DNA of 64,000 nucleotides from the human T2T-CHM13v2.0 reference genome, Homo sapiens: NCBI RefSeq assembly GCF_009914755.1, contig NC_060936.1, one strand, 5' to 3'. The translations under genes were made by a program, and so were the position numbers. Of this stretch, positions 2,870 through 48,674 are shown piece by piece (positions within the stretch are counted from its first letter, which is position 1; every line of letters starts with the position of its first letter). The notes beneath the pieces were generated by a model. That model did not search any database. It saw only the letters and a list, made by a program, of their open reading frames with translations, and was not told the origin of the DNA.

Positions 2870-3605
<736 letters not shown>

Positions 3606-4173
3606 TCAACTCATGTATAAAATGGTTCCCATGGGGAGACTGGAAAGCCTATGCTTAAGAGATTTCCAATAAAAATGGTTACCATTCACTAATTAGTCTA
3701 CATTGTGGGGAAGCAGACTTAGTTGTTAGATTTCTTTATGTGACAAAAAAAAAATCCTTCTTCGGCTCTTGTGTGTATTGTGTTGTATGCCTCTATTCAC
3801 TAATTTCTGTCCTATGGCCTAAGCAAGACTGATTCTAAAGGTGGTTATCTAGTAAGGTATATTATTCATTCACTCATTTATGTATTAGTTACTTTATTTA
3901 TTCATGCAACCATTTGTTCATTTACTCAATTAACAAGAATTTATTGTGCATCTAAGATGTACCTGGCTGGCATTGTGCAAGGCATTGGAGATCCAATGTA
4001 ATCTCTCCTAGAGCTGCTGGTTTAATGGGAGACACAGAAAACCAAATCCACAAAAACAAAGGTTGAATTACAATGGTAACACCACTGCAAAGAAGAAGTA
4101 CCCAGGGCTATGAACGTCTCCTGGAGTTTGTGCTAATCAAGGAGTTGAGAAGCAGGGCTAGGCCTAGAGCTAG

Positions 4174-4795
<622 letters not shown>

Positions 4796-43964: not shown

Positions 43965-45049
43965 TTTAAAAAGTTTTTTTTTTTTAGATTTCAATAGCTT
44001 TTGGGGGTACAGTCGTACAAATGGTTTTTTGTTACATGAATGACTTGTATAGTGATGAATTCTGAGATTTTGTTGTACCTGTCACCAGAGTGTATACATT
44101 TTATCCAATATGTAGTTTTTTATCCCACACTTTTCTCCCCTCCTCCCTTTTGAGTCTCTGAAGTCTATTATACACTCTGTATACCTTTGCTTACTGATAG
44201 CTTAGGTCCCACTTGTAAGTGGGAACACATGGCATTTGGTTTTCCATTCCTGAGTTACTTCACTTAGAATAATGGCCTTCTGCTCTACCCAAGTTGCTGC
44301 AAAAGACATTATTTCATTCCTTTTTATGGCTGAATGGTATTCCATGGTGTATATATACCACAGTTTCTTTATCCACTCATTGGTTGATGGGCACTTAGAT
44401 TGGTTCTATATCTTTGCAATTGTGAATTGGGTTGCAATAAACATACATATGCATGTGTCTTTTTATCTAATTACTTTTTTTCCTTTGGGTAGACACTCAC
44501 TAGTGGGATTGCTGGATCGAATGGTAGATCTACTTTCAGTTCTTTAAGAAATCTCCATAACGTTTTCCATAGAGGTTGTACTAATTTACATTCTCACCAA
44601 CAGTGAAAAGCATTCCCCTTTCACTACATCCACACCAAAATCTATTATTTTTTGACTTTTTAAAAATGGGCATTCTTGCAGGAGTAAGGTAGTATCTCAT
44701 TGTCATTTTAATTTGCATTTCCCCAATGATTAGTGATACTGAACATGTTTTCATGTGTTTTTTGGCCATTTGTATGTGTTCTTTTGAGAAATGTCTATTC
44801 ATGTCATTTGTCCACTTTTTGATGAGATTACTTGATTTTTCCCTTGCTGATTTATTGAGTTTCTTATAGATTCTGGATACTAGTACTTTGTCAGATGCAT
44901 AGTTTGCAAATATTTTATCCCATTCTGTGGGTTGTCTGTTCACTCTGATGATTATTTATTTTGCTGTGTAGAATCTTTTTAGTTTAATCAGGTCCCATTT
45001 ATTTATTTGTTTGTTTTTGTTGCATTTGTTTTTGGGGTTTTAGTCTTGA
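43965..45049 (-). mobile_element. 5'-truncated L1PB-like element
   Basis: ORF2 remnant (ORF 44581-44943, [13 protein letters not shown]); perfect 16-bp TSD tgtacctggcactctt. Confidence 0.92.
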
Positions 45050-46179
45050 TGTACCTGGCACTCTTACATGCTCAGTAATCATTAGATGTGATTTTGTTGG
45101 TGAATTCTTATTTGTTATTCCTCTGTTCATTCAACCTCCCCAGTCTGGGTCATACACTGTTTTCAAAACTCTCCCTCTTCCTATTAGTTAACCCAATTCT
45201 TTATTCAGCAAATATTATTAAGTACCAGTTTGTATGCCGGAGTCTATTCTAAGCATAGGAGATGCCTTGGTGAGCAAACCAGACCAAATTCTTGCCTTCA
45301 TAGTCACCATTCTAAAGCAAAAGCAGAAAAATAGTCTACATAACTCAGCTAAAATAGACAAAAAGAGAAAACAGTCAAGCAAACAAAAAGATTAAGAAAT
45401 ATAAAATCAGTAAAAGAGTATCGAAAAGAATACGTAGAAAAATGCAATGGTAATAAAATGATTTCCAGGGAATATGAACTGACATTTCACATAAACATAT
45501 AGGTGATGAGGCAAGACAAACTAAGATGATAAAAACTAAATTTAAACAAGAAAAAATGTTTAAAGCAAACATATAAGCAATATGTATAAGTAGTGGTTAA
45601 AAGAAACGTCTTAAAGCATAAATTACTAAATGAGAAAAGTTATAAATCTACACTCAAGAAAAAAATGGAAATAGGCATTTAAGCAGCAGTTTGGAGGTGA
45701 AAGGTTTAACCCCACAGAGCAAACGAATTCACTTGGGCTCAGGTAGCTACGAGCAGCATCAGGCACCTCCCAGTGCTGGAATTCACCTATTAGAAACCCA
45801 GAACACCCCTAGGAACCTCAGGGAAGATGCTGGGGACCAGGTGCCGGTCACTGTGGGCCACTAGCTTCTGGGGGTTTGCCTACCTGGCACTTTAAATGGT
45901 CACTGAAGGTATCCAAAGCCAAACTCCAGCACAGCTTGGCTGTCCTCATCATAACCCCTGTCCTCATCCTCTCAGCAGAAACCCAGTAGGTCTGATGGTG
46001 TCAGTGGGTTTTTGCTTTCTACTCCTTTAGCCTCCTTCATCACTTAATAAGCATTTTGTCAAAGAAATGAGTGCATGTGATTCCAAAGTCAAATGGTAAG
46101 AAGGGCATATCATTAGAAAAAAGCCCCACTCCTACCCTCTTCAACTGCTCCTAGAGGCAACCCCTAAGAACCACTTCAG

Positions 46180-46847
46180 TTTTCTTTGCTTTTTGTATTT
46201 TATTGTTTCTTTCTTTGTTGTGTGGATAGTCTTTATTTATTTCTGTAGTACCATCTTCCCTCCCAACAAACATGGAAGAAAAAAAGAAGGGGCTGGTGGG
46301 AAGAAATGCCCTGGGGGACACACCTCTCCAATCTCTGCAGTTTTGAAGAGGGAGTGTTGAGGTGGAAGTCTTGGGGATATGGGGAAGATGGCCAGCCCCT
46401 CCTCTTGTCTCCCAGGTGGCTCTTGGCAGCCTTTTAAAGCTTAAACTCATCAGTTATTTTGGAGACGATGCTTTTAAAAGACTTGGAAGTCTGGGATATA
46501 TGCTTAAATGGAAACTTCTTGAGATATCTCCAAAGCAATTTTCACACCTCCATCTTCCACTGTACTGAGTTCTCTTGGTCCCACTGTGGCTGCATGCACA
46601 GCAGCATGCAGTTCTTGTACAGTCTCTGGAGTCTGAAGGAGTTCCATTTTGTCTTATCAATGATCTGCACAGCTACCTCTTTCCTAGTTAGGGTGTGTCA
46701 GGCCAACTGCATGGTGACCAAGTTACCCTGGTTGATGGTCGTGATGAGCCAGTAGTTGCCAATATGGGTATCCTCAGCAGAGATGCCTGAGAGGTCCTGC
46801 AGTACGTTGGAGATAGGGCTTGGAGTCAAGGTGTCCCGAGGTAGGCT
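46180..46847 (-). pseudogene. Processed MARK2-like (Par-1 kinase) pseudogene with large internal deletion
   Basis: Minus-strand frame reads SAEDTHIGNYWLITTINQGNLVTMQLA*HTLTRKEVAVQIIDKTKWNSFRLQRLY-KNCMLLCMQPQWDQENSVQWKMEV*KLLWRYLKKFPFKHISQTSKSFKSIVSKITDEFKL*. This resembles MARK2 [42 protein letters not shown] and its C-terminus VQWEMEVCKL...FKRISGTS...SKIANELKL*. Stop at 46434-46436, then 3'UTR-like sequence and an A-rich tail remnant. Confidence 0.9.
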
Positions 46848-47029
46848 TAAATTTGGGAAAAGCTGATTAAAAGCTTGGTCCAAATCATGTCAAAAGAATA
46901 TAACTTCCAAAATCCACCTGATGACCTAATCTTTATAATGAAATCAAAACACAATGCCAGAGAAAAATAAAAATAAACAAAAACAAATGCTAACACACTA
47001 AATTTAAAAAGAAAAATGAGAAAAAATTC

Positions 47030-47830
47030 TTACAAAGTCTTTGTATAGTTTTGGTATTAGGGTAATGCTGGCCTCATAAAATAAGTTAGAAAGTGTTCCC
47101 TCTGCTTCTATTTTCTGGAAAAGATTGTACAGAATTGGTATCATTTCTTCTTTAAATGCTTGACAGAATAAACCAGTGAGACCATCTGGGCCTGTTGCTT
47201 TCTGTTTTAGGTTATTCATTATTGATTCAATTTCTTTAATAGTATAGGCCTATTTTGATGACCAATTTCTCCTTGTTGAGTTTTGGTAGGGTATGTCTTT
47301 CCAGGAATTTCATCTAAGTTAGCAAATTAGCAGGCTTGGAGTTGTTCATATTTCTTTATTTTTCTTTTAATGTCCATGGGATTAGTAACGATGGGCCTCT
47401 CCTTCATTTCTGATATTGGTAATTTGTGTCTTCTCTCTCTCTTTTTTCTTGGTTAGCCTTGCTGGGCTTGGTTAGCCTAGCCTTATTAATTTTATAGATC
47501 TATTTTATTGACTCTATTAATTTTTATTGATCTATTTAAAGAACCAGCTTTTGGTTTCACTGGTTTTTCTCTATCATTTTCTTACTTTCAATTTCATTGA
47601 TCTCTGCTCTAATTTTAAGTATTTTTTTTTTTTTGCTTATTTTGGATTTAATTTGTTCTTTTCTAGTTTCCTAAAGTGGAAGCTTAGATTATTGATTTTA
47701 GATCTTAATCAATATATGCATTTTAATGCTATAAATTTCTCTGTAAACACTGCTTTTGTCACATCCCATAAATTTTGATAAATTGTATTTTCATTTCCCT
47801 TTAGTTCATTTTCACTTAGTTCTTTAAGTA
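47030..47830 (-). mobile_element. L1M ORF2 fragment
   Basis: ORF 47004-47219, GPDGLTG..FYEASITLIPK. Confidence 0.85.
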
Positions 47831-48674
47831 GTCACCTCTATGTCTTCTATTTGCATTATGTGTAACCTTTTAGAAACCTTTGTGATGTAAGATATGTTAT
47901 ATTCCTATATTTCTCTAAATCAAAGTTAATCTCTTCTAAGCTCACAACTCTCCCGGCTGATGTGAAATTCATCTGGTCTATGTTTGAGAATACTCCTTCC
48001 TCCAGGATCGTGCGCAAACCTCAGGATCATGTTCAACTTTGAATTGGTCCCTTCAAAGTGAACAACTCAGCCACAGTCCAGCATGGACATCTTACCCCAG
48101 GGTTTTCAAGGCCATGGTTCTTAGTATCTTCCTGTCCTTGTCTCAGAGCTACATCATTAGAGATCTGTCACTCCTCTAGAAGCTCTTTATTAGTGCTGGT
48201 TCAATACTCACAGAACCTCCCAGACTCATCCCATTCCCAATTCTACAAGCATTGCCCTTCACCTCCAACACCTTTGAGATGATGCAATATAACCGTTTCA
48301 AAGAGAGGTCGAAAACAAAAATCCTATGTGAGAGTTATCTTTATTTAGAGACAGAAAAATTGCAGCTTTTGTCCCAGCAAGTGAACAAGAGTTTCCGCCC
48401 TCTTGGGATGGAAAAGAAAATGAAAAAGCAATAGAAGCAAGAAAAAAGCACACATAAATACCTTGATCAGTTATCCTTTCATCTTAATGCTCCTACAATT
48501 ATTGCAAAACAATCATTTATGAACTCAAACTGGGGACGGTAACAAATTTGTTATGGGCTGGGCACTTGCCATGCTGTGTAAAACCTGGGTAGATTCATGT
48601 CTCAAGATAATTTTTAAAAATGTAAACTTCCTACTAAAAGGACAGCATAAGGCAGTGGTTAAGAGCACAGAGTC

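What the first reader, a model, noticed from the sequence alone, without database searches (positions are those of the whole stretch)
46180..46847. Antisense MARK2-like retrocopy with the kinase N-lobe joined in frame to the KA1 C-terminus
Seen: one minus-strand frame runs from SAEDTHIGNYW...EVAVQIIDKT...LQR straight into MLLCM...VQWKMEV*KL...FKHISQTS...SKITDEFKL* with no frameshift. It has two internal TGA stops (46698-46700, consistent with CGA>TGA; and 46542-46544). Known (recalled): these are the start of the MARK2/Par-1 kinase domain and the last ~60 residues of the KA1 domain, normally ~600+ codons apart. Similarity starts about where MARK2 exon 2 begins, crosses the KE|VAV exon junction without an intron and continues into 3'UTR-like sequence, so it is mRNA-derived. 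Inference: about 2 kb was lost at a junction near 46620-46628 (CCAGAGACTG), apparently at a short microhomology. This could reflect a template jump during L1-mediated reverse transcription or a later deletion. It may also be a secondary copy of a MARK2-derived retrogene family. It lies antisense in the 21-kb intron between the two FXR zinc-finger exons, and the ORF track shows only a 61-aa piece of it.
Basis: partly seen in the sequence, partly recalled or inferred. Interest (0 to 1): 0.8.

Follow-up and report, generated by a model that had tools for sequence, protein, structure and literature searches.

The report
Old internally deleted MARK2 processed pseudogene
This is a long-dead, intron-less copy of the MARK2 kinase messenger RNA lying backwards in an intron of the FXR gene, with its middle missing; it is an ordinary pseudogene, though two sister copies elsewhere have lost nearly the same middle part on their own.

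Summary
One minus-strand frame (46889-46434) reads the start of the MARK kinase domain and then the last 59 residues of the KA1 domain, with TGA stops at 46698-46700 and 46542-46544.

Against MARK2 on chr11 of the same genome, the window holds exon 2, exon 3, the last exon from about +173, and 3'UTR. These are contiguous and about 75% identical. About 1.8-1.9 kb of mRNA is missing. The junction lies within 46627-46616.

New findings:
- **Longer copy.** It runs 180 nt further 5' (to about 47025) as a spliced leader whose three blocks map to MARK2 intron 1.
- **Family.** At least 10 other human loci share this leader and derived changes such as DEQPH to EEETH. Their source was therefore an already diverged MARK2 derivative.
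- **Repeated loss.** The chr8 and chr6 copies also join exon 3/4 to the last exon, at different junctions. An AU test rejects the three as one clade (p 0.004).

It is a dead processed pseudogene: the ATG is lost, there is a frameshift and there are two stops. I could not tell a reverse-transcriptase jump from a later deletion or aberrant splicing. Interest is low to moderate.

The parts
46846..47025 (-). Spliced alternative 5' leader of the source transcript. It has three blocks: 47025-46963, 46954-46910 and 46907-46846. It is 5'-truncated compared with longer sister copies.
   Evidence: The blocks map collinearly to MARK2 intron 1 at chr11 63846076-142 (74.6%), 63846841-884 (86.7%) and 63856077-136 (80.6%), and then run straight into exon 2. 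The same leader was found next to MARK2-like exon 2 at 7 other loci by own-genome search, and in 8 of the 10 other loci by blast chains. Exon 1 lies at 63828837-899, so these blocks are in intron 1.
46677..46845 (-). MARK2 exon 2 equivalent, which in the parent encodes PTLGHLDSKP...ILTGKE. It carries the family's 3-nt deletion, a 5-nt and a 3-nt deletion of its own, a lost ATG at the MIRGRN position, and TGA at 46698-46700.
   Evidence: Blast gives 74.5% identity over 184 columns to chr11 63884503-686. See also the alignment and the translations.
46623..46676 (-). MARK2 exon 3 equivalent (54 nt, VAVQIIDKTKWNSFRLQR), joined to exon 2 without an intron.
   Evidence: 85.2% identity to chr11 63884924-977. 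The parental exon is bounded by cag|GTAGCT...CAGAAA|gtaagc.
46616..46627 (-). Junction zone. Any split from exon 3 position 50 to exon 4 position 8, joined to last-exon positions +170 to +180, scores equally. About 1.8-1.9 kb of mRNA (exons 4-17 plus about 172 nt of the last exon) is absent.
   Evidence: Two-piece alignment against the parent and against the family consensus. Lengths are and are approximate.
46434..46622 (-). Last-exon coding part, the C-terminal about 60 residues of the KA1 domain. It has TGA at 46542-46544 and the parental stop (TAA) at 46434-46436.
   Evidence: 74.7% identity to chr11 63898409-605. Pfam KA1 is weak at 13.3 bits.
46243..46433 (-). Proximal 3'UTR of the source transcript, ending ...GGTACTACAG.
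   Evidence: 46341-46243 is 75.7% identical to chr11 63898670-775. In the alignment, the chr8, chr7, chr10:84.19, chr4 and chr6 copies stop being alignable at this same point.
46179..46242 (-). A-rich tract of 64 nt (67% A), starting AAATAAA. It is probably a decayed poly(A) tail. It may also include the resumption of the host L1.
   Evidence: Composition is. The AAAT(A/C)AA start is shared with sister copies. The alignment to the continuation of another L1 copy is marginal.
47036..47805 (-). Context, not part of the retrocopy: an old L1 ORF2 fragment on the same strand that abuts the 5' end of the retrocopy.
   Evidence: The translation matches human L1 ORF2p residues 455-524 (E 4e-16) and 276-303 (E 1e-3). 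No match was found for 47856-48167.

Best explanation
The locus is a non-functional processed pseudogene of the MARK2 family, about 800 bp long (about 47025-46179, minus strand).

It was reverse-transcribed, presumably by L1 machinery, from a spliced polyadenylated RNA made of an alternative non-coding leader (from what is now MARK2 intron 1), exon 2, exon 3 and onward to a proximal 3' end. It inserted next to or into an old L1 ORF2 fragment in the NR1H4 intron that splits the DNA-binding domain.

The source RNA did not come from the conserved MARK2 gene as it is today. It came from an already diverged, apparently unconstrained MARK2 derivative that seeded at least 11 copies in the human genome.

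The copy lacks exons 4-17 and the first about 172 nt of the last exon. This loss arose separately in this copy and was not inherited from a deleted founder. My preferred mechanism is an intramolecular template jump of the reverse transcriptase, or a microhomology-guided re-annealing of the nascent cDNA, during insertion. This is inferred and not shown; I put it at about 0.4 among the mechanisms.

The in-frame join is an accident. The element has no start codon, a frameshift and two stops, and it has drifted about 0.26 substitutions per site.
For: Retrocopy:
- Leader|exon 2 and exon 2|exon 3 are contiguous, although the parts lie 28 kb and 0.24 kb apart on chr11.
- 3'UTR and a 64-nt tract of 67% A follow the stop.

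Family:
- The own-genome searches found MARK2-like copies on chr3, 4, 5, 6, 7, 8, 10 (three loci) and 18.
- 8 of the 10 other loci show the same leader block next to exon 2.

Diverged source:
- At 78 of 910 alignment sites, at least 70% of copies share a base unlike human MARK2.
- All copies share a 3-nt deletion in exon 2.
- In exons 2-3 the non-CpG differences between the consensus and the parent are 8 nonsynonymous to 4 synonymous.
- These include DEQPH to EEETH, where MARK1 and MARK2 both keep DEQPH.

Age: the tree is star-like, with end branches of median 0.26.

Independent deletion:
- Junctions differ. The window has e3:50-e4:8 | +170-180. chr8 has e4:14-26 | +130-144. chr6 has e3:~33 | +25 or e4:38 | +79.
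- The AU test rejects window+chr8 (p 0.013) and window+chr8+chr6 (p 0.004) as clades.

Disablement: stops, frameshift and ATG lost.

For a jump rather than random later loss: three independent copies have both breakpoints within about 100 nt (exon 3/4) and about 180 nt (start of the last exon). There is short similarity at the window's junction.
Against: - No target-site duplication above chance. The best local alignments scored 17 and 11, against 95th percentiles of 17 and 14 in 300 random controls each.
- The A-rich tract could partly be host L1.
- No orthologous loci could be examined, so a later genomic deletion is not excluded.
- A fourth copy (chr7) has an unrelated 0.44-kb internal deletion, which shows that old copies of this family do lose internal pieces.
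- A test for long-range RNA pairing between exon 3/4 and the last exon found no outlier. Over 69 windows the mean was -43.8 with SD 6.0. The last-exon windows from -1 to +149 gave -42.3 to -47.4. The window at +179 ranked 4th at -54.6.
- The window's junction also fits the natural exon-3 donor joined to an AG at last-exon +171/172.
- The C-block part of the consensus rests on only 3-5 copies, and by my estimate may hold several false differences.
- The tree has 8 inner branches, of which 6 are unsupported.
Confidence: 0.85

Rival explanations
1. A full-length or longer retrocopy inserted first. A genomic deletion of about 1.8 kb (replication slippage or end joining at short similarity) removed the middle later.
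For: The copy is old, with an end branch of 0.26. It shows several small deletions of its own. The chr7 copy has a 0.44-kb internal deletion at non-exon boundaries, and the chr10:84.19 and chr5 copies carry large insertions. There is short similarity between the two breakpoints.
Against: Random later deletions at three different loci would not be expected to place both ends in the same about 100-nt and about 180-nt stretches of a transcript longer than 2.3 kb. My rough estimate for that is well below 1e-3. It is not a formal test, and how the copies were found may bias it.
Confidence: 0.3
2. The retrocopy records an aberrantly spliced RNA. The natural exon-3 donor was joined to a cryptic AG inside the last exon (after ...GAGCGAG, +172). 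This requires a source that still had introns, for example a decaying unprocessed duplicate of MARK2.
For: The N block can end exactly at the last base of exon 3, and the C block can begin right after an AG, with no indel needed. A transcribed, intron-bearing, unconstrained duplicate would also explain four things: the common leader start, the spliced leader, the derived substitutions, and both proximal and distal 3' ends. Decaying splice sites could give similar but not identical joins in other copies.
Against: The stretch before that AG is purine-rich and lacks a pyrimidine tract. The junction is equally well placed at 8 other positions. The chr6 and chr7 junctions are not at exon ends and have no GT...AG that I could place. 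No intron-bearing MARK2 duplicate turned up in the human genome (only the best candidates are scored).
Confidence: 0.2
3. The chr12, chr8 and chr6 copies are daughters of one already deleted founder, a deleted subfamily. Their differing junctions come from later erosion.
For: All three join exon 3/4 to the start of the last exon. The window's junction could be derived from a chr8-like one by slippage between GAGACTGT and GAGCTGT. A few shared states between the window and chr8 were seen by eye.
Against: The AU test rejects window+chr8 (p 0.013) and all three (p 0.004). chr8 groups with chr4, chr7 and chr18 (87/97), which include a full-length copy. The shared-derived count for window+chr8, 12 of 608, is not above other pairs. 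chr6 keeps last-exon sequence that the other two lack.
Confidence: 0.05
4. The L1 ORF2 fragment and the MARK2 copy are one chimeric insertion. The reverse transcriptase switched from the MARK2-derived RNA to L1 RNA. That would also show template switching in this very event.
For: An L1 ORF2 fragment (residues 276-524) on the same strand ends within about 10 nt of the retrocopy's 5' end. It is not clearly resumed after the retrocopy.
Against: No shared target-site duplication was found around the pair. The A-rich tract after the retrocopy aligns marginally to what follows LIPK... in another L1 copy, as expected for a simple insertion into a pre-existing L1. L1 is common, so adjacency alone is weak evidence.
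Confidence: 0.12
5. The in-frame N-lobe-KA1 fusion is, or was, an expressed mini-protein or an antisense regulator of NR1H4.
For: There are about 115 codons without a frameshift across the join. A RefSeq enhancer is annotated 300 bp away, at 47155-47324 (hub table).
Against: There are two in-frame stops, the ATG is lost and there is a frameshift upstream. Divergence is equal to that of the sister copies. The kinase part is about 60 residues, with no Pfam Pkinase hit. No Rfam family matched. An in-frame join has a 1 in 3 chance.
Confidence: 0.02

Closest known systems
[quoted passage not shown]
   Same: MARK2-derived, intron-less and disabled. The name series is in use: 19 papers hold 'MARK2P'. 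One gives MARK2P5 with the full name in passages I read; the others I saw only as a search listing. The sister loci found here on chr3-8, 10 and 18 are of this kind.
   Different: I could not check whether this chr12 copy has a name. It is absent from the RefSeq table supplied with the finding. The one paper that holds both 'MARK2P' and 'NR1H4' is a long gene list (listing only). None of the listings or passages I saw describes the shared leader, the diverged source or the internal deletions.
L1-mediated processed pseudogenes in general (Esnault et al. 2000, cited in PMC11702581; passages read)
   Same: Spliced, with a 3' A-rich end, 5'-truncated and dispersed. In that preprint's cell experiments, 144 of 235 new pseudogene insertions were full length and 20 of 235 had 5' inversions.
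   Different: This copy has an internal loss of about 1.8 kb rather than a simple 5' truncation or inversion. No target-site duplication is recognisable.
Chimeric or rearranged retrocopies made by RT template switching (U6-L1 chimeras, PMC4476161; tripartite chimeric pseudogene, PMC2104539; both seen as search listing and abstract only)
   Same: The idea that the LINE reverse transcriptase leaves one template position and resumes elsewhere, often at short similarity.
   Different: Here the jump would be within one RNA, giving a deletion, and it is inferred only. Those cases join different RNAs.
Retrocopies that record splice variants, and spliced L1 insertions (recalled; no call)
   Same: A retrocopy can preserve an unusual splice event of its source RNA. 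The window's junction is compatible with the exon-3 donor joined to a cryptic AG.
   Different: The acceptor context is poor, and the sister copies' junctions do not sit at splice-like sites.

Membership tests
Processed pseudogene (retrocopy) | Parental exon-exon junctions present without introns | tested here: met
   Leader block | exon 2 and exon 2 | exon 3 are contiguous in the window, but 28 kb and 0.24 kb apart on chr11.
Processed pseudogene (retrocopy) | Poly(A) tail at the 3' end of the copied mRNA | tested here: inconclusive
   A 64-nt tract of 67% A follows the 3'UTR. It may partly be host L1 sequence.
Processed pseudogene (retrocopy) | Flanking target-site duplication | tested here: inconclusive
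   The best flank alignments are no better than the random controls.
MARK2P family (copies of one diverged MARK2-derived source) | Shares the non-coding leader and the family-specific changes (3-nt deletion in exon 2, EEETH-type substitutions) | tested here: met
   See the alignment and the leader hits. The window falls inside the star of copies, apart from MARK2. In the window, the EEETH site is itself further altered (GAGGA---TACCCAT).
Functional MARK/Par-1 kinase | Complete protein-kinase catalytic domain | tested here: not met
   Only about 60 residues of the N-lobe are present. There is no Pfam Pkinase hit.
Functional MARK/Par-1 kinase | Open reading frame with a start codon and a complete KA1 domain | tested here: not met
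   Two TGA stops, an upstream frameshift and a lost ATG. KA1 scores 13.3 bits, under the 23-bit cut-off.
Template-switch chimeric retrocopy | Two RNA-derived parts in the same orientation enclosed by one target-site duplication | tested here: inconclusive
   The L1 ORF2 fragment abuts on the same strand. No common duplication was found.
Retrocopy of a splice variant | Junction coincides with a donor and an acceptor (GT...AG) of the source | tested here: inconclusive
   Exon-3 donor plus AG at last-exon +171/172 is one of 9 equally scoring placements. It is possible only if the source had introns.

The most novel reading that the evidence does not exclude
Three independently inserted copies (chr12, chr8, chr6), from at least two branches of the family tree, each lost almost the same segment. 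Each joins exon 3/4 to the first about 180 nt of the last exon, with the window's and chr8's junctions inside chr6's under one of its two placements.

This would mark a hot spot in the source RNA. One possibility is a structure across which the L1 reverse transcriptase repeatedly jumped. The other is recurrent cryptic splicing of a transcribed, decaying, intron-bearing MARK2 duplicate that has since vanished from the human genome.

Either way, the MARK2P family would be a fossil record of a lost expressed MARK2 derivative with its own promoter in what is now MARK2 intron 1.
Probability: 0.3. Interest if true: 0.45.

Novelty: new member of a known kind. Interest (0 to 1): 0.25.

Why it matters
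For NR1H4 and for MARK2 biology it matters little. The element is a disabled fossil, and nothing suggests that it acts on its host gene.

Its modest value is for the study of retrocopies, in three respects:
- The family preserves an alternative, now degenerate 5' leader of the MARK2 locus. In human DNA its 60-nt exon has caa|...|at instead of ag|...|gt, and its long first exon is interrupted by Alu-like insertions.
- The family shows that its copies came from a diverged source rather than from the conserved gene.
- It offers three independent, similar internal deletions. With orthologous loci from other mammals, these could test whether such deletions are made at insertion or later.

Tried and rejected
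- **Deleted subfamily:** rejected by the AU tests and by a pairwise shared-derived count that was not elevated (12 of 608 for window+chr8; other pairs reach 15 of 404).
- **Long-range RNA pairing between exon 3/4 and the last exon:** RNAduplex on a script-joined human MARK2 exon series, 69 windows, gave no outlier. Present-day human sequence may not represent the source RNA.
- **Target-site duplication:** The repeat finder gave 13 short two-copy families. One (46219-46239 with 48327-48347, 76%) touches the 3' end, but its partner lies about 480 nt beyond the last detectable L1 homology. Local alignments were not above chance.
- **L1 resuming after the retrocopy:** phmmer of the 37-residue downstream translation found nothing relevant. 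The DNA alignment to another L1 copy's continuation was marginal, score 17 in A-rich sequence.
- **Exon skipping in the chr7 copy:** rejected. Its join is exon 2 position about 13 to exon 7 position about 37.
- **Pfam on the two L1 translations:** no hit. The PDB search was needed instead.
- **Rfam and tandem repeats in 45000-48500 / 45800-47300:** nothing relevant.
- **Exact size of the missing part:** two attempts to set the exon 13-17 boundaries did not give an open frame, so I give only about 1.8-1.9 kb.
- **More genome DNA:** The leader-only hits on chr1, chr7:36.25 and chr3:131.5 were therefore not examined.
- **Literature:** 'MARK2P' occurs in 19 papers. I read passages of one, and I saw the single paper with both 'MARK2P' and 'NR1H4' only as a listing. 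The retrocopy and template-switching search gave 50 papers, 15 listed. I read passages of one, which does not treat internal deletions within insertions. No supplements were opened.
Full report
**1. The observation**

It has TGA at 46698-46700 and 46542-46544, and the terminal TAA at 46434-46436.

A phmmer search of this translation against all PDB chain sequences returned 47 distinct sequences at E<=1, and the best 23 are MARK1-4:
- Residues 35-97 align to the very start of the kinase domain. For MARK2 5kz7 the E-value is 1.6e-13 (...[54 protein letters not shown]...).
- Residues 93-151 align to the last 59 residues of KA1 (1ul7 2.4e-8; 3ose 1.2e-7).
- An engineered MARK1 kinase-KA1 fusion (6c9d) matches in both stretches.

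Pfam reports only a sub-threshold KA1 (13.3 bits against a cut-off of 23) and no kinase domain. That fits a short, decayed fragment.

**2. The parent gene**

The window's own assembly can be searched. The window piece matches chr11 at three places that are exon 2, exon 3 and the last exon of MARK2. Blast against 84 kb of that locus gives a collinear chain:

| Window (minus strand) | Matches on chr11 | Identity |
|---|---|---|
| 46847-46675 | exon 2 | 74.5% |
| 46678-46625 | exon 3 | 85.2% |
| 46615-46419 | inside the last exon, 63898409-605 | 74.7% |
| 46341-46243 | 3'UTR | 75.7% |

The parental exons have normal splice sites: cag|CCCACC...AAAGAG|gtgagc and cag|GTAGCT...CAGAAA|gtaagc. The last exon begins at 63898230. 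So the KE|VAV junction is intron-less in the window, and the C block starts about 172 nt inside the last exon, not at an exon boundary.

Exon 1 (ATG...NERDTEQ|gtaagg), with its CpG island, lies at 63828837-899 and has no counterpart in the window.

**3. The copy is longer than the finding**

The 180 nt upstream of exon 2 (47025-46846) is AT-rich and looked like junk, but it is shared with other MARK2-like loci. It maps in three collinear blocks to MARK2 intron 1: 63846076-142, 63846841-884 and 63856077-136.

The last block ends exactly where exon 2 begins, so this is a spliced alternative leader. In longer sister copies the leader reaches back to 63841866-63842286 and 63845339-769.

On chr11 these blocks are separated by roughly 300-bp segments that hit dozens of places in the locus. 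Their ends look like Alu ends. That is my inference and from flanks recognised by recall; no repeat library was available.

In present human DNA the 60-nt block is flanked by caa|...|at rather than ag|...|gt. This leader exon therefore looks degenerate in today's gene.

**4. The family and its source**

Own-genome searches and local blast give MARK2-like retrocopies at these places:
- chr10:93.30, chr10:90.72 and chr10:84.19
- chr4:179.35 and chr3:147.08
- chr18:44.65, chr6:55.87 and chr5:158.51
- chr7:98.09 and chr8:68.29
- three leader-only hits that I could not fetch

Only the best candidates are scored, so these are lower bounds.

In the alignment of leader plus exons 2-4, all copies share states that human MARK2 lacks. 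These include a 3-nt deletion and GAGGAGGAGACCCAT for GATGAGCAGCCCCAC. Overall, at 78 of 910 sites at least 70% of copies agree on a non-parental base.

In exons 2-3 I counted 77 codons, of which 17 were unresolved. The consensus differs from the parent at 8 nonsynonymous, 4 synonymous and 2 CpG-type codons. One change, I to L, is probably a change in the human gene; mouse has L by my recollection, with no call behind it. DEQPH, however, is kept by both MARK1 and MARK2, so EEETH is derived.

In the last exon the count is 13 nonsynonymous, 2 synonymous and 7 CpG-type, with 44 of 119 codons unresolved. It rests on only 3-5 copies, and by my estimate could include several false calls.

I conclude that the copies came from a MARK2 derivative that had already drifted without much constraint. 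I cannot say whether that source was a transcribed retrocopy or an intron-bearing duplicate. These points favour a gene-like source:
- the common 5' start of the long copies, at about 63841866-882 in three of them;
- the spliced leader;
- the use of both a proximal 3' end (most copies, last exon about +546 to +560) and a distal one (chr10:90.72, to +2133).

**5. Age**

The maximum-likelihood tree is a star. End branches have a median of 0.26 substitutions per site (0.26 for the window). Only two groups have support: chr10:93.30+chr10:90.72 (100/99) and chr4+chr7+chr8+chr18 (87/97). The chr3 row was dropped, because it is a 96%-identical partial duplicate of chr10:93.30 followed by unrelated sequence.

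From general knowledge of human neutral divergence, a divergence of this size points to an insertion around or before the radiation of placental mammals. I did not date it further.

**6. The junction**

A two-piece alignment, which finds the best split of the copy between an N reference and a C reference, places the window's junction equally well at nine positions. These run from exon 3 position 50 to exon 4 position 8, joined to last-exon +170 to +180, that is window 46627-46616.

The ambiguity comes from similarity between the two parental sites: ...CCTCCAGAAACTATTCC... and ...TGCCAGAGCGAGCTGCATG....

One placement is exactly the end of exon 3 joined after an AG (GAGCGAG|CTG). That would fit the natural exon-3 donor spliced to a cryptic acceptor, but the acceptor context is purine-rich.

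**7. Sister copies with similar losses**

The chr8 copy is collinear with the window across the join but keeps more on both sides: exon 4 to position 14-26, and the last exon from +130 to +144.

The chr6 copy joins exon 3 (about position 33) to last exon about +25, or by the other equally scoring placement exon 4:38 to +79. It keeps last-exon sequence that the other two lack.

The chr7 copy has a different loss, exon 2:13 to exon 7:37.

The three copies that join the N-lobe to KA1 are not a clade. Holding window+chr8 together costs 14.3 log-likelihood units (AU p 0.013), and holding all three costs 17.3 (p 0.004). I defined the group by the deletion trait, but ran the test after I had seen a first tree.

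So similar losses arose at least twice, and probably three times. That is hard to reconcile with random later deletions, and it suggests a property of the source RNA or cDNA. A simple test for RNA pairing between the two regions found nothing unusual.

**8. Surroundings**

Immediately 5' on the same strand lies an old L1 ORF2 fragment. ORF2p residues 455-524 are at 47240-47036, and residues 276-303 are within 47831-47709. Nothing is detectable further up.

L1 does not clearly resume after the retrocopy, and no target-site duplication can be shown. A separate stretch of the ORF2 C-terminal region lies at 44955-44205 on the same strand (recognised by eye and recall).

I cannot decide among three cases:
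- the retrocopy landed in a pre-existing L1;
- it removed target DNA on insertion;
- it forms a template-switch chimera with the L1 piece.

No Rfam family or notable tandem repeat lies in the area.

**9. Function**

I see none:
- The ATG that the family keeps at the MIRGRN position is lost.
- The parental frame is broken upstream.
- There are two stops.
- The copy is as diverged as its sisters.

The in-frame join is a 1-in-3 accident.

**10. Comparison with what is known, and verdict**

MARK2 pseudogenes are named by HGNC, for example MARK2P5. I could not establish whether this locus has a name; it is not in the RefSeq table supplied.

It is an ordinary processed pseudogene with an unusual but not unprecedented internal loss: a new member of a known kind.

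The points worth keeping are the fossil leader, the diverged source, and the three independent, similar junctions. Orthologous loci in other mammals, which I could not examine, would settle when the loss occurred.

Noticed in passing
window 47036-47805 (minus): An old L1 ORF2 fragment (ORF2p residues about 276-524) abuts the 5' end of the retrocopy on the same strand. It is 3'-truncated, with no clear continuation after the retrocopy. The RefSeq enhancer at 47155-47324 lies inside it.
   Followed up: partly
window 44205-44955 (minus): L1 ORF2 C-terminal region with long open stretches (for example a 124-aa piece, [13 protein letters not shown]...), on the same strand. I do not know whether it belongs to the same element as the upstream fragment.
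   Followed up: no
L042 (chr7:98.09 Mb) 1700-1830: This sister copy goes from the leader through the first about 13 nt of exon 2 straight to exon 7 position about 37. That is a 0.44-kb internal loss not at exon boundaries.
   Followed up: yes
L035 (chr10:90.72 Mb) 3281-4231: Last-exon homology of this copy stops at +172, the same position at which the window's C block starts. It resumes at +1528 in the distal 3'UTR after 443 nt of other sequence. This may be coincidence or a weak point at +172/173.
   Followed up: no
chr3:147,077,724-147,078,303 vs chr10:93.30 Mb: 580 nt, from the leader to mid exon 2, are 96% identical between these two loci. That is far closer than any other pair, which suggests a recent DNA-level duplication of part of a copy.
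   Followed up: no
chr11 63841866-63846884 and 63856077-63856136 (L027, L028): The ancestral leader is recognisable in MARK2 intron 1. Its long first part is now interrupted by about 8 Alu-like insertions. Its 60-nt exon has caa|...|at in place of ag|...|gt, so it is probably dead in humans.
   Followed up: partly
chr1:228,235,965-228,236,425; chr7:36,252,525-36,252,856; chr3:131,497,511-717: These places matched the leader's first part only, with no MARK2 exons reported nearby. They may be more family members, or a sign that the leader's first exon derives from a low-copy repeat.
   Followed up: no
3' ends of copies (alignment); chr11 about 63898790: Most copies end at ...GTTCTACAG followed by AAAT(A/C)AA, but human MARK2 reads GTTCTCCAGCCCCCC there, with no A-run or AATAAA. 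The source therefore had a proximal end or signal that today's gene lacks.
   Followed up: no
tree: The chr10:93.30 and chr10:90.72 pair has a much shorter root-to-tip path (about 0.13-0.16) than the other copies (about 0.26-0.32). They may be younger copies of a slowly changing source, or this may be an effect of their having N-block columns only.
   Followed up: no
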